From contig NW_026515673.1 in assembly GCF_025526975.1 (NCBI RefSeq), forward strand, positions 868,001 through 932,000: 64,000 nt of DNA, given 5' to 3'. The position numbers and the translations under genes are program-made. Below are positions 10,814 to 23,971 of this stretch, in pieces. The notes under the pieces are model-generated. The model made no database searches and was not told where the DNA came from. It worked only from the letters and a program-made list of their open reading frames with translations. Each line of letters begins with the position of its first letter. The stretch's first letter is position 1. The stretch comes from Fimicolochytrium jonesii. Lineage: Eukaryota.

Positions 10814-12432
10814 ATGGGCGAACCAGCCGCAGACGGTCCCGTGCAGGCCACCTCGTCACCAGCAACACTAACATCCGCTCCCGTCGAAGTCCCCGCAGAA
10901 AGCGCCTCCGGCCCGACCGACAGCAACCAGGAGCAGGTCGTCACTCCCTGGGATGTACAAGGAGCACAGGTAGACGGCAAGGCCGTCGCTATCGACTACA
11001 ATAAGCTGGTCGAGCAGTTCGGGACGAGAAGGATAGATCAGGCGCTGCTGGATAGGTTGGAGAAGCTGACGGGGACGAGGCCGCATCCGTTTTTGAGGAG
11101 AGGGTTGTTCTTTTCGCACAGGTGAGGAGGTTTGAGGCAATGGGAAGCACTGAGGGACCTTTAGAGGGCGTACGGGATCGACCGGGGTCCACGGGGCCCG
11201 GCCAGGTGGACGCACGGCTGATGTGTCTGGGGGGAATGTGCTCTGGTGATGCGACAAGTTCTGACACGATGACTTGTAGAGACCTGACACAACTACTGGA
11301 CCGATACGAGAAAGGAAAGCCATTCTACCTCTACACCGGCCGTGGACCTAGCAGCGGGAGCATGCACGTCGGCCACATGGTTCCTTTCATCTTCTGCAAA
11401 TGGTTGCAAGACGTCTTCCAATGTCCGCTAGTCATCCAACTCACCGACGACGAAAAGTTCCTGTTCAAGCAAGAACTGACTATGGCTGACGCATTGAAGT
11501 ACTCAAAAGAGAACGCCAAGGACATCATGGCGTTCGGGTTCGACCCGGAGAAGACCCTGATCTTCTCCAATCTCGGGTACATGAACCCCGCGTTCTACCA
11601 GAACGTGGTACGGATCTCGAAATGCATCACCACCAATGCATCCAAGGCCACGTTCGGGTTTGGTGACAGCGACAATGTTGGCAAACTGCACTTCGTGTCT
11701 GTGCAAGCCGCGCCGTCCTTCTCGAACTCGTTCCCGCAGATCTTTGGCGGGAAATCAGATGTGCCATGCTTGATTCCGTGCGCGATTGACCAGGATCCTT
11801 ACTTCCGACTTACCCGCGATGTCGCTGCCAAGCTGAAGTACCCCAAACCAGCGCTGCTACACGCCATGTTCTTCCCGGCCCTGCAGGTAAGAATCCCCGG
11901 TCGAAAGACTTCCTTTCTTTATTCCCACTTCTAACCCACGCCACTCCCCAACTCACAGGGCCCCTCCTCCAAAATGTCCGCCTCCAACGCCTCCTCCGCC
12001 ATCTACCTTACCGACACCCCCTCCCAAATCAAAAACAAAATCAACAAATACGCCTTCTCCGGCGGCCGCGACACCCTCGAGGAGCACCGCAAGTACGGCG
12101 GTAACTGCGACGTCGACGTGTGCTTCCAGTACCTCCGCTTCTTCCTCGACGACGACGATAAGCTTGAGGAGGTTCGCCAGAAGTATACCAGTGGCGAGAT
12201 GATGACGGGGGAGCTGAAGAAATTTTGTATTGAGGTTGTTACGGGGTTGGTGGGGGAGATGCAGGCGGTATGTAAAGCGTGTTTTCGCCTTGGCTACCTT
12301 AATTGTTGGGCTCATGGGTGTCATTTTTTTTTGCAGAGACGGAAGACCCTCACGCAGGAGACGATCGACAAGTTCCTCGACATTGGTCCACGGAACATCG
12401 TCACCCCGCCCGCGAAGAAGCCTGTCGCTTAG
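10814..12432 (+). CDS. WRS1: Cytoplasmic tryptophanyl-tRNA synthetase, 4 exons
   Basis: 'VTPWDV', '[17 protein letters not shown]' (HIGH motif), 'AIDQDPYFR', 'KMSAS' (KMSKS motif). Confidence 0.96.
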
Positions 12433-12741: not shown

Positions 12742-14335
12742 TTACGCACGCTCCAAAATGAGCGCAATACCCTGCCCACCCCCAATACACGCCGTCCCCA
12801 AAGCATATCGCTTCTTCGTACGTTGCAGCTCATGCGCCAAATGCGCAGTGATCCTCGCCCCACTCGCTCCGAGCGGGTGTCCAATGGCAATGGCCCCACC
12901 AGCCAAGTTGACCTTCGACATATCCCATCCAAGCTCGCGGGACACGGCAATCGCCTGCGTGGCAAACGCCTCATTCAATTCAATGATATCCATGTCGTTC
13001 AGTGTCAAACCGGCCTTCTTCAACGCGCCTTTGACGGCGGGGACGGGCCCGATACCCATGATCTTAGGGTCGACGCCGGAGTAGTGCCAGCTGACGAGAC
13101 GAGCGAGGGGTTTGAGGTTTTGGGATTTGACGGCGGATTCGCTGGCGACGACGAGGGAGGCGGCGCCGTCGCAAATCCCGGACGCGTTTCTGTGAGTGAT
13201 GGGAGCGTGTGAGCTTGTCGGACCTAACTAAAATGGATGTCTGAATGAGTGCATCTTTCTTACCCAGCGGTGACCGTCCCTGTCTGCTTGATGAACACGG
13301 ATTGCAGCTTTGCGAGCGTCTCGAGAGTTGTTGATCCTCGTGGATGCTCGTCGGCAGTGAACGATTCCGTGCCTTTCCGCGTCTTGATCTCCACGGGAGC
13401 GATTTCTGCGTTGAAGATACCGGCAGCGTGTGCTGGAAAAGGGATTTGGGCGTCAGTAAGCATCATAAGAGGACCATGGACAACCGTTTCATCAACCCAC
13501 CTTTCGCGTAGTTCTGTTGTGATCTCAACGCAAACTCATCAGCCTCTTTCCTCGTGATGCCATATTGTTTCGCAAGATTCTCAGCAGTGATCCCCATCGG
13601 CGTCTTCTCGGGGAAAGTGTCCGTGAGAGCATGGGCGAGGGTATCCTCAAGCTTCTGGTCGACACCGTATTTCGTTCCGAAGCGTGCATTCCGCAAGGCA
13701 TACGGCGCCTGGGTCATGCTCTCTGTCCCGCCGGTGAGTACGATTTCGGCTTCACCTAGAATGATCTCTTGAGCGCCGTTGATGACGGATTGGAACCCGG
13801 ACCCGCAGAGGCGGTTGATGGTCAACGCGGGCGACTCGATGGGGACGTTGGCGCGGTGACCGACGTGGCGGGCGAGGTATGCGGCATCTGGCAGAGGAAT
13901 GCGTGTCAGCCAGAACCCCACGTTTGACCACCGAAGTAAAGTATGACCCCGCCAACCTACCTGCAGAGGTTTGCAGCACGTTCCCGTAGATAACAGAGTC
14001 TACCTTCGTCCCGCTTGGCAATTCCTTCAATGCAGCCACGGACGCGAGGCCTCCAAGCTCAGTTGCCGAGAAGTTGGTAAGCTTTCCGCCAAAGGCACCG
14101 AAGGGCTATGCAAGGGAAGAAAGCAACAATGAGTTAACCTCCTGAAATGGGACTCCTGCCTCCCGCCGAAAGAAAGGATGCTGGACATACCGTGCGCTTG
14201 GCTGCGACTGTGGTGCGCAGATAACAAAGGGAGATGCGAAGACGATGAGAACAGACTCCTGAAACATAGATGGGCGGAATGGTGTCGAGGCGACTTACCG
14301 ATGTAGACGTTCTTTGCAAGGTGTTTGGACGCCAT
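12742..14335 (-). CDS. 3-ketoacyl-CoA thiolase (ACAA2-like), multi-exon
   Basis: 'TINRLCGSGFQS' (catalytic Cys), 'ELNEAFA', 'GHPLGASGARI', 'CIGGGQGIA'. ATG at 14335 (MASKHLAKNVYI). Confidence 0.94.
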
Positions 14336-15439
14336 TGTGATAGGTGTTGCAGCCGTGGGAAAGTTGCAATTTTCGAGGAGATGATGATGAGAGTGTCGCC
14401 GTATTTGTAGTTTCGCCAGGGGCGGAATCGTGCGAAATCCCAACGGGTTGGATGATTAGTCAGCAACGCTTCGCGTGACTCCTTTTGGCATGTGCAGAAC
14501 GCAGCACCCGCGACTGCCCGCGGCGGCATTCAATGAACAATGCACCCGTCAAAATCGGTATCCCCTGTCCTTGCTCCCAGTATTCTCCTTGCCCTCCGTA
14601 TATTCTGCTCGCAAACTCCTTGCACTGGAGTCTGCGAGGTAAGGTACTACTGGCACATGCTGCACTGCTTCGATGAAAAGCCGGATGTAGTCCCCTGAAT
14701 ATATATTAGCCTGCCCAGCGACTGATATGCATCCGCGAAAAACACGCGGGCAGGATCGTGTATATCAAGAGCATACGCCCTGGGTGAAATAGAAAAAGTA
14801 TCAAGCTTTGGGCCTATATGTAGCCTCCGATCGGCAGCTCAACAGCGAACACTTGATAGCCGGCACCGGTGAACATCTTCAGGAGATATTGTCCGTCGAT
14901 AGCTATCGCTTTTTCATTCACCGCCGCGTGCAAGTAGCGTAGATGCACATCACATCTTGTATATGTCGGAAAGATAGGTAGGATAGAAATCCTCCTGCAC
15001 AGGACAAATGGAACTCACAATGTCTCGCGGCGGGTGACAGCGAAACGAAGATGCATACGTGCACGGCCCAAATATTGCTCTCGCATCTGCCGTATCGTCC
15101 GTCTTCAGGACGTCAAGATAAATGAACCCTCTTTGCCAGCAGGGACGAACCTCCAGGAGCCATCGGAACTACTATAATAGATGGTGGTACTATTCTTTTC
15201 TCATACTGTTAGGGTTCATTGTACACAGATACACGACATCAAAACGAAATGTTTAAAGGGTCCAACGCACAACGCGAAAAGGAAAAGAAAAAGAACAATG
15301 AGCTAAGCGTCTATATACAGTACATACAAAATTTCAGCGGCTATGCAGCGGGTAATCCGACTATGTAAGGTATGAAAAAAACACAAAGCATAGATGGAGT
15401 GGTACATCAAAAAACACGTACGGCGAAGACGTCCATCTC

Positions 15440-17507
15440 TCAACTGGACCCCATAACATTCGTCATCGGCGCATAACTCTCACTCTTCAACACAATATAC
15501 TGCTCCGCATGCGCCTTCAACACCGCCTCCACACGCTCACCCCATTTCAGCGGATCCGGACCAAGTTCCCTCAGACAGTCTCCTAGCGCTTTACAACTGC
15601 CCACGGCGCGCGCCCACCCGGTGCCCATTGGCCAGAAGGGTTCCACGAGGGCGTCGCCGACGAGGGCTACTAGGAGGGTTTTTGGGTGTCTTGTGTTGCT
15701 CCCGGGGGGCGTGAAGGTGGAGGTAATTGCTTTACTGGGTTCGGTAGCGCAAGTTTTGCCGGTGAAGTCGAAGATGGCGACGTCCGGGCGGGGCGGGCCG
15801 CCTTTACTTGACGTGGTTTGGAGGAATTCGCTGTCCGGTGGCACACCTGCCATTGTTGCGACTTCTCTTGCAAATTTGAGTAAGTTGTCGCGGTCGACGT
15901 TATCACGTTGCACCAACTCCACGGGATCCGCGCGGTCTTCCTTGACAATTCCCTTGTTGAGCAGGGTGCTGCGTTTGGGCGTCATGACGAGGTAATGCGA
16001 TTCCTCAGTAATATACGAGGCAAGGTTCTCAAGATCCAGTCCTTTCTCTTTCAGCGAGTTGAAGAAAGGCGCGGAGAGATATGAGACGACTCCGCCCTGC
16101 ATGGCGTCGGCGGCGGCGGGCGAGTGGGAGGGGACGAAGTTGCAGGTGATACCTGTGGCGACGCCGGCGCGGAAGGAGGTACGGGAGAAGCCGAAGTCGG
16201 AGGAGAGTTTGGATTTTTCGCCGCCGGCTAGGACGAGGGTGTTGCATTTTAGGTCGTGTGGTGTTGAGGTGGTAGTGCGGGCTGTCCAGTAGGGGGTGTC
16301 TTTGTCGGGTTCGATGCCTGCTAGCTCGGCTTGGGGGATGACTGTGGGAGCAACGAGTTTGTTGTGTAGAGTGAGTACGGGTCCATTCATTAGACCGCGC
16401 CCTCGAAGTGAGCTTACTCTCAGCGCCTAAACACAAAGCCATCTTCATAAAAACAATCTGCATGCGTCTGATGGCGACGACATCTCGGTCCTGAACGCAA
16501 ATCTTGCGGTAAAAGTCTCTCGCCCCCAGCTGATGCACAAGCTCGTCCATGTCCTTTGTGTGTATCCTCATCACATTCACCCTGTTGAATGTGTCTGAAG
16601 GGAAGAATGAGCGTGAGAAAATGTTTCGTGCCAGTGGAGGAGAACTGAATAATACGTACTTCGCTTCTCAAGCACGACAATCTTGTCACATCTCAACAAA
16701 CACATCTCCACAGCAGCCCGAAGTCCTGCCGGCCCCGCGCCCACAATCAGTGCTCTCCTGCCCGCCGCATTCGATAAGTTTGTTGATGATGAAGTCTGCG
16801 AAACGTAATGTGGATCGCTGAACCGCGCTTCCATGCATTTCCAGAAATCGCCCAGATGGTGTGTCGCAGTCGCTGAATGCTTGTGAAGTAATGTGTATGT
16901 TTCGTACGGGGTCGTTGGCGCGGAGCCACCTTCACGATCTATACACGCCAGCTTCCATGCCTACAGGGGGGAACAAGCACTTAGGTTGTGGGTTGGATGA
17001 CGATATTTCAAACCGACATCATGCCCGCTCCGCTCGCGACAAGGGTGCTCTTCAGCTCATACAAAAGGACGACCGGCTCCGGCCCGCCTTCGCTCGCGAG
17101 TGTGTTGCGCCTTCAGGGCCGTACCCGCTCTGCTCTCTCGCTGTCGCATCCAACCCCTCGCCCCGCTCGTCGCTCTAACTCGCAACTCTCACGAAACCCA
17201 CCTCAAAAGCCTCCAGTATATCCAATAAGTCATCAGCCTCCGTAAACTTCCTGACAAGGGCAAAAATCGAGTTTCCACCACCAGAACTAGTACTACCCCT
17301 TGGGCCAAGAAGTGGTGAACTCGGAGGTAAGGGAGATTGGTTTCGGGGTGTTGCGGTGGAAGATATGGAAGATAGGGAGGTACCGCCGAGCATGTTGATA
17401 ATATCGCTTACGCTTGCTTTTGGGCTGCTGCTGCCTGTGGTGTGTTCGTCTGGCGGTGGAGTGATGGCGTGAGGAAAAGGATGGAGCGAGGAAGCGGAGT
17501 TGGACAT
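15440..17507 (-). CDS. MICAL-family flavoprotein monooxygenase domain protein, stand-alone, multi-exon
   Basis: Rossmann motif 'ALIVGAGPAGLRAAVEMCLL...VLEKR', then 'LGARDFYRKIC...VAIRRMQIVFMKMALCLGAE', 'LDLENLASYITEESHYLVMTPKRSTLLNKGIVKED', 'PDVAIFDFT' and 'LLVALVGDALVEPFWPMGTGWARA'. All parallel the MICAL MO domain. Confidence 0.87.
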
Positions 17508-18926: not shown

Positions 18927-19963
18927 ATGCCGACCCCACCTCCGAATGGCGACGTGGACATAGCAGCAACATTCAAGCTATTGCTAATTGGTGATTCCGG
19001 AACTGGGAAATCGTCCCTACTTCTGCGCTTTACGGATGATACGTGGCTGCAGCCAGATGAAGTCTCAGCAACTATTGGTGGGTGTTTTAGGGACCACTTG
19101 CGTCCTTTGGGCGACTGGGAGTTGGCGGTGACGACGGTGCCGTGTCAAGGCCGTGCACACACGAGAACAAAGCGTCTCACACTGTCTTCCATTTGTCCAG
19201 GTGTTGACTTCAAAGTGAAGATAGTGGATGTTGAAAATAAGCGGTACAAGCTGACAATATGGGTAAGCTGGCGACTGTTAGCCGTCTTGTGCATGTCAAC
19301 GCAGTCGGTGTTTCTTGTATTTCAGCGAACCTAATTTCTCTTTTGACATTCAAAGGACACCGCTGGTCAAGAGCGATTCCGAACACTGACTTCCAGCTAT
19401 TACCGTGGAGCTCAGGGAGTGATTCTAGGTGAGCCGGCGTTGTCCCTCCTCAAATGGTCACAAAAGCATGCACGAACATAGCACTCACACTACTCCATTC
19501 ACCCAGTATACGACGTATCCAACCGTCAAACATTCGAACATCTCCAACTGTGGTTCAACGAGCTGGATACCTACTCGTCCAGCCGGGACGTGATAAAGAT
19601 TATCGTGGGAAACAAATGCGACAAGGATACGCCTGGCGTGCGGGAAGTGTCTCGGAAGGACGGAGAAGCTTTCGCGAGGAGGATGGGGACGCTGTTCATC
19701 GAAACTAGCGCAAAGACGAAGACGGGTGTGAAGGATGCGTTTGTTGAGGTCGTTCGTAAGGTGGGTGTCTCGTCGTCGACCGAAGAATCAACGTCTGGTC
19801 GAGTTGCCGCATGGCGATTGGTATACTGACGATATTGTCTTCGGCATTCTTGTGACAGATCGCGGAAACGCCAGCATTGTGGCAGAAGCAACAAGGTCCC
19901 CGCCCAGGAGCTGTTCAGCTGCACGGCGAGGAAGAAGAACAACAAGGAGTCTGCGGATGTTAA
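18927..19963 (+). CDS. RAB18: Rab18-like small GTPase, 5 exons
   Basis: '[18 protein letters not shown]', 'SATIGVDFKVK', '[25 protein letters not shown]', 'NKCD', 'ETSAK', 'IAETPALW' and a C-terminal CGC prenylation motif. Confidence 0.9.
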
Positions 19964-20566: not shown

Positions 20567-22053
20567 TCACACAAAATAAACCCCATCAAACATCCTAAGC
20601 CGTCCAAACGACCTCGTCAAATCCCCCACAGGTATGCCAACTCCCGCCGCCGCCGCATCCCTCTCAATCGACCGTCTTCGTCCACCCGCTTCCCTCCCAC
20701 CATCCCCGCCATCGTGCTCCCTAACCTCAACAACACCCGCGTACCCCTCCCTAATCGACCCCCCACCAAACGACCCCACGGGTGAGCCCATCAAAACCGA
20801 CATCGACGAGACGCCCATCCCCAAGAAAGAGGACATGGGATTCGAAGCACTCAACGAAGCCATAGACCCGCTCGCGCTCAACGGACTCGGCGCAAGGACA
20901 TCCACCATCCCTGCCGCCAGATCACATCCCGCTGTCAAAGTATGGAGGATCATGGAGGCGCGGGTGAGGGAGGTTGTCAGGTGGTGGGTGCTGGGGCGGC
21001 GCGGGGGGCTCGTTGTGGGGTGGTTGTGGGTGTGATGGTGGGGGTTCGCGTAGTGGGGTGGGGAGAAGGAGGGTGGGGATGAGGTACCCAGGGTGTGGGA
21101 GCGGAGGATGGGGGAGTGGGGGAGGAGGGGTGGGAGGTGGGTGTGGGTTTGGGGGGGTTGGGATGTTGACAGCGCTGTGCGGGGAAGAGATGGGATGCTT
21201 AATGAGCGATGTTATGCTGCTGGGTGGTATTACAATCTTACCGGAAAATGTGGGCGACATGGCTGTGGCTACTATCCCGTTATCCATTCCTACGACGTCC
21301 AAGATGATATCAGTCTATTGAAGTTTTCTGAAGAAACAGCCCAATATGCGGCCGACACAAAGGACATTTCAACCACCGGCCTCAATCAAAACCTACCCCA
21401 AAACCCCACACCCCCCATCCACCCCCTCTCCTTCTCACACTGCTCACACACCACCACCTCCCTGGCTCCCACAACCACTGCCCTCCTCGCCGGCCGCAAC
21501 CCATCATATATCGACCGCGTCGCCAGAACATCATCCCCGTCTTCGCTCCCGTCGGCGTTGAACCGCGAGTGAGGCGGGAAGAGGGATTGCAGGGCGTGGC
21601 AGTCGTGGTAGGTGGCCCAGAACCGTTTGGAGCGGGAGCGGAGGTGCGAGAGGTGTGTTGTTACGGTGGCTTTCCAGTTTATTGTTATTGAGGGGCTGCG
21701 TGTGGTGATGGGCGGTCAGATATTCTGCTCAAATGCACACCTCAACATCTAAAACCAACAAGTAAAGAGCACACCTACCCATTCTCCTCAACCCCATCCA
21801 TCCCAAAAACCTCCCCATCCCCCTCCCCAACATGAGCAACAACATAAGAATCCTGATGAATCTCCGCCAGCGCACAAAGCCGTCTCCACAATGCGGGCTC
21901 CTCGGCGCATTTGCGCCATGAGCGAGACACCCCGCAGAGCAGGCAGAGCGTCTCGCCGGGGAGGTGGGCGAAAATTTTGATGAGCAGTTCCGGGGGGAGG
22001 AGTGGTGGTGCCGAGGTGACGGGGGCGGGCGGGGGTGGGGTTTGGGCGGACAT
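20567..22053 (-). CDS. F-box protein with Pro-rich low-complexity C-terminus, multi-exon
   Basis: N-terminal 'LLPPELLIKIFAHLPGETLCLLCGVSRSWRKCAEEPALWRRLC'. Downstream exons are open on the minus strand. Confidence 0.75.
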
Positions 22054-22482
22054 TCTGTTGAGATGTGGGAGGCAGAGTGATTTCTGTTTATTCGTGCAAA
22101 CTGTATGCGAACCGCTCTTCTTTTAATCGTATGTCGGGTTTTGACGGGGCTTCCTTACCCGCTATCCCCACGTCATTCCTCTAGCTCTCACGCCCCCTGT
22201 TCTCCGTTTCCTCGCCATCCTCGATTTACTTTTCAGCCACACTTCATATTGCATTTAGCTTAATTCGGAGGATTTCCTGTCTGCTGGGCATTGCTTACGC
22301 TCCCTTTGTTTAGCAAGGAGGCGCAATATTGCATCTGACTCCTGGTAAGACGACGAAGAGAGTAACGTCGTTACCTGAAATGCGAGAAATCAGCAAAGTT
22401 TGACAGGGAAAAGCGGCTGACAGAATTGACAGCACCCGACGCTTATGTAATGACGGGGTCAGCGAAGTGAATGGCTAGAAGC

Positions 22483-22899: not shown

Positions 22900-23971
22900 C
22901 TAGTTGGCAGCGGGGACAATGTTATGGTTGACCAGCTGCTTGAGCACACGGTCAGCAATGACTTGGTGCGTCTTTGTCGTAGGGTGGGAGTCGTACAGGA
23001 GGAAATCCGCGGGGTTGGGGCAAGCAACGCGGGGAGCGGTAGGGTTCACCCGCGAGACACATGTCTTGAGCACGTCGCCGATAGGCATTTTGAAGCCCCA
23101 CTTTTTGCGGTTGAGCACGATGTATGCGAACTCGATCTCCATAGAAATGGCCACGAGCTTGACAGAGGGGTTCAGAACCGCGAGCTTGATCAGCTCGCCG
23201 GCGAGGATAAGGTTGTGCTGGACCCATGGGATCTGACTCTGGCCTGGGGGCAGGTTGAACACCACAATGTTTTTCGCCCCGGATTTGATGAGGGTGTTGA
23301 CGGAGGCCACAATGTTGCCGACCACCACCTTCGGGGTGAAGAGGGAGACGTTGGCATTCTTGCTCCAGTAGTCGTTGGCACCGGACCAAACGCTGAACAA
23401 AGTCGTGGAGGCGTCGAAGGGCTGGCCGGCCGATGCGAACTGGTTGACCTGCTCGATGAGGCCCGGGAGGCGGTAGTCAATATAACCGTTCGTGTCGGCA
23501 CCAGGCTCGTTGGCGGCCGACGTGGTGGAACCCCCGTACGCGTAGTTGTCAACGGACGCTTTGAGTGTCTGGGAAATGTAATCGGACCAGACGAGACCGT
23601 TCGTGTAGCGTCCTTCGGGGTAGACATCGCGCGGGAAGGGAGGGTTTGCGCCATTCGCGTCCATAAACTTGGCGGTGTTTCCGTTGTCTATAGAATTGAG
23701 AGAATGACAGAAGGTCAGCGGGGAGCTCGTAGCATTCTCTTATTCGACGAAGAGACGGCAGGAAACACGTACCAGACAAGGAGTCTCCAAACACAATCAT
23801 CTTCTTCACACCAACGGCCTGAGCGCCGGGGATCTCCCAAGGGAAGATGGGAAGAGACAACCTCTTTTCGAGTTCAACCTCCACAGTGTTTTCGCGCGTG
23901 GCGACCGGGGCAGCCGACACGGCGGAGACCGCGGCGAGCACGAAGACGGCGATGTTCCTGAGGCCGAGCAT
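22900..23971 (-). CDS. Secreted GDSL/SGNH lipase-esterase, 2 exons
   Basis: Signal peptide MLGLRNIAVFVLAAVSAVSA; block I 'IVFGDSLSDNGN', 'GRYTNGLVW', block II 'NYAYGGST', block III 'WSGANDY', block V 'YDSHPT'. Confidence 0.92.

What the first reader, a model, noticed from the sequence alone, without database searches (positions are those of the whole stretch)
15440..17507. Stand-alone MICAL-type actin monooxygenase domain in a fungus
Seen: all MICAL MO hallmarks (GxGxxG, HYLVMT, DVAIFDFT, VGDALVEPFWPMGTG), a Pro/Ser-rich N-terminal leader, and a stop ~55 aa after the GD motif. Established: animal MICALs oxidise actin Met44/Met47 to disassemble F-actin and carry CH, LIM and often coiled-coil domains. 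Those domains are absent here. Inference: a minimal redox actin-disassembly enzyme lacking the autoinhibitory tail, relevant to crawling or encysting zoospores.
Basis: partly seen in the sequence, partly recalled or inferred. Interest (0 to 1): 0.7.

Follow-up and report, generated by a model that had tools for sequence, protein, structure and literature searches.

The report
Tail-less, rewired MICAL enzyme of chytrids
This chytrid fungus has a gene for only the enzyme part of MICAL, the animal protein that breaks actin filaments by oxidising them; it keeps the flavin-binding residues but has changed many surface residues, so it likely oxidises a protein, most likely actin, which would make this kind of actin control older than animals.

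Summary
Confirmed: a four-exon minus-strand gene (17507-15440, 561 aa) encodes a MICAL-type flavoprotein monooxygenase domain and nothing else. No CH, LIM or bMERB exon lies in the window, and ten proteins from seven other chytrid genera are built the same way. Sequence and fold place it with MICALs (Z 31-34), far from PHBH-like enzymes (Z 18.6 or less). Two corrections. First, the missing tail is not peculiar to this fungus: amoebozoan and green-algal MICAL-like proteins also lack it, often carrying N-terminal EF-hands, so tail-less is probably the old state. Second, not all hallmarks are present. The flavin network is intact, but all 9 chytrid rows replace His126, Trp128, Lys141, His154 (each 40 of 40 elsewhere) and the DG aspartate, and lose the C-terminal DPxxRY segment. 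Two of the three main F-actin-protected segments are thereby altered. Best reading: an active, probably leaky NADPH-dependent protein-methionine oxidase of a long-branch chytrid subfamily; F-actin is the likeliest substrate (about 0.4) but untested, and nothing links it to zoospores. A 2025 review says MICAL genes occur only in Drosophila and vertebrates; databases already auto-label some of these proteins. New variant of a known kind.

The parts
15440..17507 (-). Gene for a 561-aa stand-alone MICAL-type flavoprotein monooxygenase, four exons
   Evidence: residues 145-561 are identical to public protein P0001 (417 aa, named Fimicolochytrium jonesii by its source), whose model misses the N-terminal part
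17202..17507 (-). Exon 1: Pro/Ser-rich leader (aa 1-85) and first helices of the MICAL N-terminal bundle
   Evidence: aligns to the N-termini of orthologues P0002, P0004, P0007-P0009; leader is longer than in orthologues, a second in-frame ATG lies inside it, so the start is not proven
16961..17201 (-). Intron 1, 241 nt, GT-AG, phase 0
   Evidence: joins two blocks that are contiguous in orthologues
16660..16960 (-). Exon 2: rest of the helical bundle and the FAD-binding GxGxxG motif (16741-16724)
16595..16659 (-). Intron 2, 65 nt, GT-AG
   Evidence: same junction as public model P0001
16418..16594 (-). Exon 3: Asn123- and Ile157-equivalents kept; chytrid-specific Arg-Ile-His for His126-Leu-Trp128 (16568-16560) and changed 148-158 loop (16499-16479)
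16342..16417 (-). Intron 3, 76 nt, GT-AG
   Evidence: same junction as public model P0001
15440..16341 (-). Exon 4: DG site with Gly for Asp (16225-16220), HYLVMT (15997-15980), DVAIFDFT (15784-15761), GD motif with Trp400-equivalent and clade-specific Trp at MICAL1 position 406 (15661-15614), stop at 15442-15440
15443..15487 (-). Short clade-conserved C-terminal tail (SESYAPMxxVM) in place of the MICAL 449-489 segment; low model confidence
   Evidence: first Met in 9 of 11 chytrid proteins, both Met in 8 of 11

Best explanation
The gene encodes a stand-alone MICAL-type flavin monooxygenase of a chytrid-specific subfamily that likely binds FAD, takes electrons from NADPH and oxidises a methionine of a protein substrate, most likely on actin filaments, through a rebuilt docking surface. 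Shown: gene structure, family, fold, absence of CH/LIM/bMERB, conservation across eight chytrid genera, intact flavin-contact residues. Inferred from MICAL1 chemistry: NADPH reduces the flavin in its 'out' position under Trp400, the ring swings in, forms the C4a-hydroperoxide and passes one oxygen to a Met side chain; on actin this would be Met44/Met47 and would destabilise the filament. Inferred: with no coiled-coil tail there is no Rab-released autoinhibition, and with Gly/Thr/Ser for the DG aspartate the enzyme would burn NADPH to H2O2 without substrate as MICAL1 does, so control would come from expression, location or the short conserved Met-bearing tail. The tail-less build is probably ancestral; animals added CH, LIM and bMERB.
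For: Fold: Foldseek ranks 1-10 for the model of P0001 are all MICAL1/3 (E 8e-32 to 8e-29, TM 0.75-0.78), next is E 2e-14; VIA-align of the full-length Powellomyces orthologue gives Z 34.0, 33.7, 31.3 for MICAL3/MICAL1 including the N-terminal bundle, then 18.6. Flavin contacts named for mouse MICAL1 in PMC3645671: Asn123, Ile157, Tyr293, Asp360, Asp393, Trp400 kept in 9 of 9 chytrid rows, Asn243 in 8 of 9, Thr291 to Ser in 8 of 9; NADPH-side Arg116, Arg121, Arg158 in 9 of 9. 57-68% identity to orthologues with no broken frame. The MO domain alone binds and disassembles F-actin (PMC9982024 section 2). The segment most protected by F-actin (beta11-alpha11-beta12, PMC11557892) keeps Gly260, Phe269, Phe270, Leu281, Glu282, Asn283, and Trp400, Pro401 (9 of 9) and Phe399 (8 of 9) are kept. 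One tail-less protist-type relative, P0140, is fused to a cofilin/ADF-H domain (E 1e-9), a hint that the tie to actin predates the CH-LIM tail. DG Asp-to-Ala raises basal NADPH use 12-fold in MICAL1 (PMC5772675 passages).
Against: No activity was measured and no actin complex was modelled. Of 95 columns conserved in at least 90% of the 40 non-chytrid rows, 33 are not kept in chytrids (some are conservative or alignment shifts). His126, Trp128, Lys141 and His154 are 40 of 40 outside and 0 of 9 in chytrids; Gly150 is 40 of 40 against 1 of 9. The 148-158 loop and the 440-453 loop, both protected by F-actin in human MICAL1, are changed or cut short; the DPxxRY segment is absent. The basic patch proposed to dock acidic actin is weakened: His133 to Asp/Glu in 9 of 9, Lys142 to Asp in 7 of 9; bundle net charge -7 to +1 in 9 chytrid rows against +6 to +11 in 91 vertebrate rows, although protist-type rows are also near neutral (mean +1.0). 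A long stem (about 1.3 changes per site) followed by 34 clade-specific conserved residues is what a change of substrate looks like, given how conserved actin is (recalled). The ADF-H fusion is a single unnamed record.
Confidence: 0.42

Rival explanations
1. A neofunctionalised MICAL: the same flavin chemistry, but it oxidises a different protein side chain (a chytrid-specific cytoskeletal, flagellar or signalling protein), not actin.
For: Substrate-side loops changed on a long stem and then fixed while the flavin network stayed; MICALs have other direct or linked substrates (CaMKII, Arp3B; PMC9982024).
Against: The most F-actin-protected segment and the Phe399-Trp400-Pro401 cleft are largely kept; no other substrate is indicated by anything seen here.
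Confidence: 0.25
2. Mainly a soluble NADPH oxidase: it makes H2O2 for redox signalling and has no tight protein substrate.
For: The DG aspartate is Gly, Thr or Ser in 9 of 9 chytrid rows against Asp in 34 of 40 others; this change makes MICAL1 leaky; no autoinhibitory tail.
Against: MICAL1 with the same kind of change is still an actin oxidase; a clade-conserved surface (34 positions) suggests a specific partner; an unregulated H2O2 source would be costly (inference).
Confidence: 0.15
3. A small-molecule hydroxylase that went back to PHBH-like chemistry from a MICAL ancestor.
For: Same fold class; new polar and aromatic residues around the flavin (Arg for His126, His for Trp128, Trp at 406) could form a small pocket.
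Against: It keeps the MICAL N-terminal bundle and helix alpha11 topology, with Z 31-34 to MICALs against at most 18.6 to small-molecule hydroxylases; no NCBIfam hydroxylase model comes near its cut-off; no biosynthetic neighbours seen.
Confidence: 0.12
4. A catalytically dead scaffold, or a wrong gene model that misses downstream exons.
For: Two donor-like sites lie near the end of exon 4 (15540, 15483); no RNA data; His126 was proposed to tune catalysis.
Against: Flavin contacts are invariant; ten other chytrid proteins end at the same place; profiles of the MICAL C-terminal segment, CH, LIM and bMERB find nothing in the window (best E 0.25, against 1e-21 in positive controls for the C-terminal profile); only 1.1 kb separates the stop from the next gene.
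Confidence: 0.06

Closest known systems
Animal MICAL1/2/3 and Drosophila Mical, [F-actin]-monooxygenases (PDB 2BRY, 2C4C, 4TXI, 6ICI, 8Y6K, 9EWY)
   Same: N-terminal helical bundle plus PHBH-fold core; GxGxxG and GD motifs; Asn123, Tyr293, Asp360, Asp393, Trp400 network; about 37% identity over the core; Z 31-34.
   Different: No CH, LIM or bMERB; no 449-489 segment; His126, Trp128, Lys141, Gly150, His154 and the DG aspartate replaced; Trp at 406; bundle not basic.
Tail-less MICAL-like proteins of Amoebozoa and a green alga (Balamuthia P0129, P0134; Acanthamoeba P0135; Physarum-labelled P0141; Cymbomonas P0151), database entries only
   Same: MO domain without CH/LIM/bMERB, at or near the C-terminus (18 of 18 protist-type rows counted end 4-12 residues after DPxxRY); near-neutral bundle; about 37% identity.
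   Different: They keep His126, Trp128, Gly150, His154, mostly the DG aspartate, and DPxxRY; many carry N-terminal EF-hands, one an ADF-H domain. The chytrid protein has only a Pro/Ser leader.
Group A flavoprotein aromatic hydroxylases (p-hydroxybenzoate hydroxylase, HspB, UbiH, PnpA)
   Same: Core fold and FAD motifs.
   Different: 12-20% identity, Z at most 18.6 (PHBH 8weq Z 17.1); no MICAL-specific PF25413 domain; small-molecule substrates.

Membership tests
MICAL monooxygenase domain family | Pfam PF25413 Rossman_Mical above its curated cut-off | tested here: met
   85.9 bits, cut-off 27, E 3e-24; animal-type and protist-type rows score 101-219
MICAL monooxygenase domain family | MICAL fold with N-terminal helical bundle | tested here: met
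   Orthologue model aligns from residue 15-16 to MICAL residues 7-10 onward, Z 31-34, rmsd 2.7-3.1 over 424-433 residues; model of P0001 TM 0.75-0.78. The window's own bundle was checked by alignment only.
MICAL monooxygenase domain family | GxGxxG and GD FAD motifs, Trp400 stack, Asn123/Asn243/Tyr293/Asp360 network | tested here: met
MICAL monooxygenase domain family | DG motif aspartate | tested here: not met
   Gly in the window, Thr/Ser in orthologues; MICAL1 also lacks it, so this does not exclude membership
MICAL monooxygenase domain family | Conserved 121-130 and 148-158 loops (His126, Trp128, Gly150, His154) | tested here: not met
   0, 0, 1 and 0 of 9 chytrid rows against 40 of 40 others
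MICAL monooxygenase domain family | Ordered C-terminal segment 443-489 with DPxxRY | tested here: not met
   Structural alignment ends at MICAL1 residue 448; profile of the segment scores 0.3 bits on P0001 against 61-65 on controls
Canonical multidomain MICAL (MO-CH-LIM-bMERB) | CH, LIM and Rab-binding coiled-coil domains after the MO | tested here: not met
   None in the protein or anywhere in the window; the rest of the genome was not held
[F-actin]-monooxygenase activity | F-actin-stimulated NADPH oxidation, Met44/Met47 oxidation, filament disassembly | not testable with these tools
   needs purified protein
Canonical multidomain MICAL (MO-CH-LIM-bMERB) | One clade with animal MICALs | tested here: inconclusive
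   Chytrid clade 100/100 on a long stem, attachment unresolved, no outgroup; AU test of chytrid+animal p 0.083
PHBH-like aromatic hydroxylases | Closer in sequence and fold to PHBH-type enzymes than to MICAL | tested here: not met
   phmmer of P0002: MICALs E 1e-49 or better, next E 0.06; Z 31-34 against 18.6

The most novel reading that the evidence does not exclude
Redox disassembly of actin is older than animals: tail-less MICAL enzymes are the ancestral form, spread over fungi, amoebae and algae (calcium-gated by EF-hands in amoebae), and this protein is the first fungal actin-methionine oxidase, working through a rebuilt substrate face and possibly gated by its own methionine-bearing C-terminal tail, which loosely resembles the actin D-loop.
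Probability: 0.33. Interest if true: 0.8.

Novelty: new variant of a known kind. Interest (0 to 1): 0.56.

Why it matters
[quoted passage not shown] A conserved fungal MICAL domain, with tail-less relatives in amoebae and an alga, makes that view testable with one purified protein. If it oxidises actin, redox filament disassembly predates animals, and the chytrid changes show which surface residues actin binding does not need, a point still open for MICAL. If it does not, it is a natural substrate-switch variant of the first flavoprotein monooxygenase class known to act on a protein. Tempering this: NCBI pipelines already name several of these proteins '[F-actin]-monooxygenase'.

Tried and rejected
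Whole genome not held, so a second, CH/LIM-bearing copy elsewhere in the genome could not be looked for. No RNA holder was listed; no evidence either way. The exhaustive search of 50%-identity representatives never ran, so the range in fungi rests on word-indexed searches limited to 180-574 aa, 229-970 aa and 409-1302 aa (amoebozoan-type query); a fused chytrid form above 970 aa was not searched for, and the absence of Spizellomyces, Batrachochytrium and Dikarya from the listed rows is not proof of loss. Bacterial origin: 1 of 130 pattern matches in genome contigs passed (L001) and is a wrong-frame match inside an unrelated gene; none of 37 in viral contigs; no match in plasmids; the giant-virus cluster suggested by ESM features was not backed by a fold search (best TM 0.42, 7-19% identity). 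No outgroup could be fetched, so the tree is unrooted. Hidden 3' exon rejected. The idea that the Met-bearing tail plugs the substrate cleft got no support from the models (pLDDT under 50 there). No complex prediction was run: enzyme on a filament, and no actin sequence on hand. Earlier findings: three look-ups, nothing. Literature: ten searches listed no paper whose title or abstract start concerns a fungal or protist MICAL; only the listed rows were seen (e.g. 20 of 57, 25 of 827, 20 of 1180), the library lacks most subscription journals, and the supplements of the chytrid preprint (its table of 34 regulators) were not read.

Full report
1. The observation. The interval 17507-15440 is the ATG-to-stop span of a minus-strand gene with four exons (17507-17202, 16960-16660, 16594-16418, 16341-15440) and three GT-AG introns (241, 65, 76 nt); the joined frame is 561 residues with no internal stop. 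The last exon matches Pfam PF25413 at E 3e-24, and the only 5 PDB sequences it matches are MICAL1 and MICAL3. Residues 145-561 are identical to public protein P0001, named Fimicolochytrium jonesii by its source; that public model starts too late, because exon 1 and the start of exon 2 align with the N-terminal helices of the orthologues. No RNA run was listed, so intron 1 and the start codon rest on consensus and homology.

2. It stands alone. tblastn with four animal MICAL tails finds nothing better than E 0.035 in the window. Profiles of the MICAL C-terminal segment, CH, LIM and bMERB find nothing in six frames of the window (best E 0.25; the C-terminal profile scores 61-65 bits on three controls and 0.3 on P0001). 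The next gene begins about 1.1 kb past the stop. A search with exon 4 gave 11 proteins of 4763 candidates, 9 of them chytrid; a profile of eight chytrid proteins gave 181 of 7992, of which 120 were listed: 11 chytrid proteins from eight genera at the top (365-647 aa, none with CH, LIM or bMERB) and 109 CH-bearing animal-type MICALs below. All chytrid proteins end at the same place, give or take a few residues. Forms above 970 aa and the rest of this genome were not searched.

3. It is a MICAL, not a PHBH-type hydroxylase. AlphaFold2 models of P0001 (pLDDT 79.1, pTM 0.81) and of the full-length Powellomyces orthologue P0002 (79.6, 0.84) were searched against the PDB. Foldseek ranks 1-10 are MICAL1/MICAL3 (E 8e-32 to 8e-29), rank 11 is E 2e-14. 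VIA-align over 48,161 chains gives Z 34.0, 33.7 and 31.3 for the three MICAL entries, then 18.6; the alignment includes the N-terminal bundle and stops at MICAL1 residue 448. The alignments behind the models held animal MICALs, so the models lean that way, but plain phmmer says the same (E 1e-49 or better for MICALs, 0.06 for the next).

4. The missing tail is the rule outside animals. A scan of metagenome contigs gave 88 confirmed stretches of 265 (79 loci kept); one, L004, encodes EF-hands followed by a C-terminal MICAL domain. Searching with it gave 734 proteins of 7995 candidates, 120 listed; the best 18 have no CH, LIM or bMERB on record and include Balamuthia (two), Acanthamoeba and a Physarum-labelled transcript, with the green alga Cymbomonas further down. 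Of 19 rescanned, none had CH, LIM or bMERB; five had EF-hands and one also a cofilin/ADF-H domain. The 18 protist-type rows counted end 4-12 residues after the DPxxRY motif (the script stopped before the last three). The ESM Atlas lists further PF25413 clusters whose commonest phyla are Oomycota and Bacillariophyta (leads only). By inference the CH-LIM-bMERB tail is an animal addition, which fits the finding of PMC3305314 (passages) that the LIM-bearing MICAL class arose at the animal stem.

5. What the chytrids changed. I aligned 9 chytrid rows (the window model and 8 of the 10 other chytrid proteins; P0003 and P0005 dropped as near-copies) with 40 hand-picked others (12 named animals, 7 unnamed animal-type, 21 protist-type) and read off MICAL1 positions. 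Kept: GxGxxG, Glu114, Arg116, Arg121, Asn123, Ile157, Arg158, Asn243, Tyr293, Asp360, Asp393, Trp400, Pro401, Gly403, Gly405, the flavin and NADPH contacts described in PMC3645671 (section 2.5 part 1 and passages). Changed: His126 to Arg, Trp128 to His, Lys141 to Arg, His154 to Val/Ser (each 9 of 9, against 40 of 40 unchanged elsewhere); Gly150 (1 of 9 against 40 of 40); the DG aspartate to Gly/Thr/Ser (Asp in 34 of 40 others); position 406 to Trp (9 of 9, absent from the four commonest residues elsewhere); Val285 to Ala; and the DPxxRY segment is gone. Of 95 columns at least 90% conserved in the others, 62 are kept and 33 are not. 34 positions are conserved in chytrids and rare elsewhere. The bundle is neutral to acidic (-7 to +1 in 9 rows, against +6 to +11 in 91 vertebrate rows); by alignment columns the means are -0.8 (chytrid, 8 rows, range -5 to +5), +1.0 (protist-type) and +8.1 (animal-type), so the basic bundle is an animal trait rather than a chytrid loss.

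6. Tree. The chytrid rows form one group (100/100) whose inner order is Chytridium, then Borealophlyctis, then the rest, which matches the species order as I recall it and suggests vertical descent within chytrids. The stem is long (about 1.3 changes per site) and its attachment among animal, amoebozoan and algal groups is unresolved (49 rows; 35 rows after dropping 14 near-duplicates, mixture model). Holding chytrids with animals is not rejected (AU p 0.083), which does not show a clade. There is no outgroup.

7. How it most likely works. Shown: fold, motifs, intact flavin pocket, long-term conservation. Inferred from MICAL1: FAD bound, reduced by NADPH, swinging from out to in, forming a C4a-hydroperoxide that oxygenates a protein methionine (PMC3645671). 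The MO domain alone suffices for F-actin binding and disassembly (PMC9982024 section 2 part 1), so the lack of CH and LIM is no obstacle. In animals the coiled-coil helix blocks a cleft formed by Phe399, Pro401, Leu402, Val285, Ile264 and Tyr265 (PMC11315924, section on MO/RBD), which overlaps the F-actin site mapped by HDX to beta11-alpha11-beta12, residues 148-158 and 440-453 (PMC11557892, results section and discussion). The chytrid protein keeps much of the first segment and alters the other two. That leaves actin the likeliest single substrate (0.42) but gives real weight to a switched protein substrate (0.25), a mainly H2O2-making role (0.15; the DG change raises basal turnover 12-fold in MICAL1, PMC5772675 passages), a small-molecule hydroxylase (0.12) or a dead or mis-modelled gene (0.06). 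A speculative extra: the clade-conserved tail SESYAPMxxVM starts at the rim of this cleft and carries two methionines, loosely like the actin D-loop peptide quoted in PMC4792234 (passages); it could gate the enzyme, but the models leave it disordered, the spacing differs and Borealophlyctis and Chytridium lack it. Nothing here ties the gene to zoospores; chytrids do keep other animal-like actin regulators (bioRxiv 10.1101/2020.06.12.142943, passages).

8. Novelty. A 2025 review states MICAL genes are known only from Drosophila and vertebrates (PMC11853071, passage); the chytrid actin survey's main text does not mention MICAL (supplements not read). Ten searches listed no study of a fungal or protist MICAL among the rows shown; PMC12050087 and PMC8132124 mention it only in reference lists. 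Automated names in NCBI already call several of these proteins F-actin monooxygenases. So the family's presence outside animals is in databases but seemingly not in the papers reached, and the chytrid subfamily's rewired loops and lost C-terminal segment are a new variant. Interest 0.56.

Noticed in passing
P0140 (unnamed record); P0129, P0135, L004:3-2234: Amoebozoan-type MICAL-like proteins carry N-terminal EF-hands before a C-terminal MO domain; one also has a cofilin/ADF-H domain. A possible calcium-gated actin oxidase family that keeps the animal-type loops, and a better candidate for ancestral actin oxidation than the chytrid protein.
   Followed up: partly
window 18927-19960 (+): A Rab GTPase gene lies head-to-head with the MICAL-like gene, about 1.4 kb away; best PDB match Rab18 (E 8e-20). 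Animal MICALs are Rab effectors, but this protein lacks the Rab-binding domain; probably coincidence, synteny not tested.
   Followed up: partly
window 16961-17507 (-): The public gene model P0001 (417 aa) omits exon 1 and the start of exon 2, i.e. the N-terminal helical bundle; likely a mis-annotation.
   Followed up: yes
L010:204-4358, L017-L020, L022: Intron-free animal-type MICALs of 1385-1650 aa in which Pfam finds a LIM domain (not in L020) but no CH domain; L010 groups with invertebrate MICALs in the tree.
   Followed up: partly
window 12742-14339 (-) and 11935-12432 (+): Downstream neighbours look like a thiolase and the end of a tryptophanyl-tRNA synthetase (read from ORFs; names recalled, not tested).
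   Followed up: no
window 21775-22122 (-) and 22900-23739 (-): An F-box-like ORF and a GDSL-lipase-like ORF (names recalled, not tested).
   Followed up: no
P0013 (Chytridium lagenaria): The most divergent chytrid member has several long low-complexity insertions and changes at Asn243 and Thr291 positions; may be a faulty model or a decaying copy.
   Followed up: no
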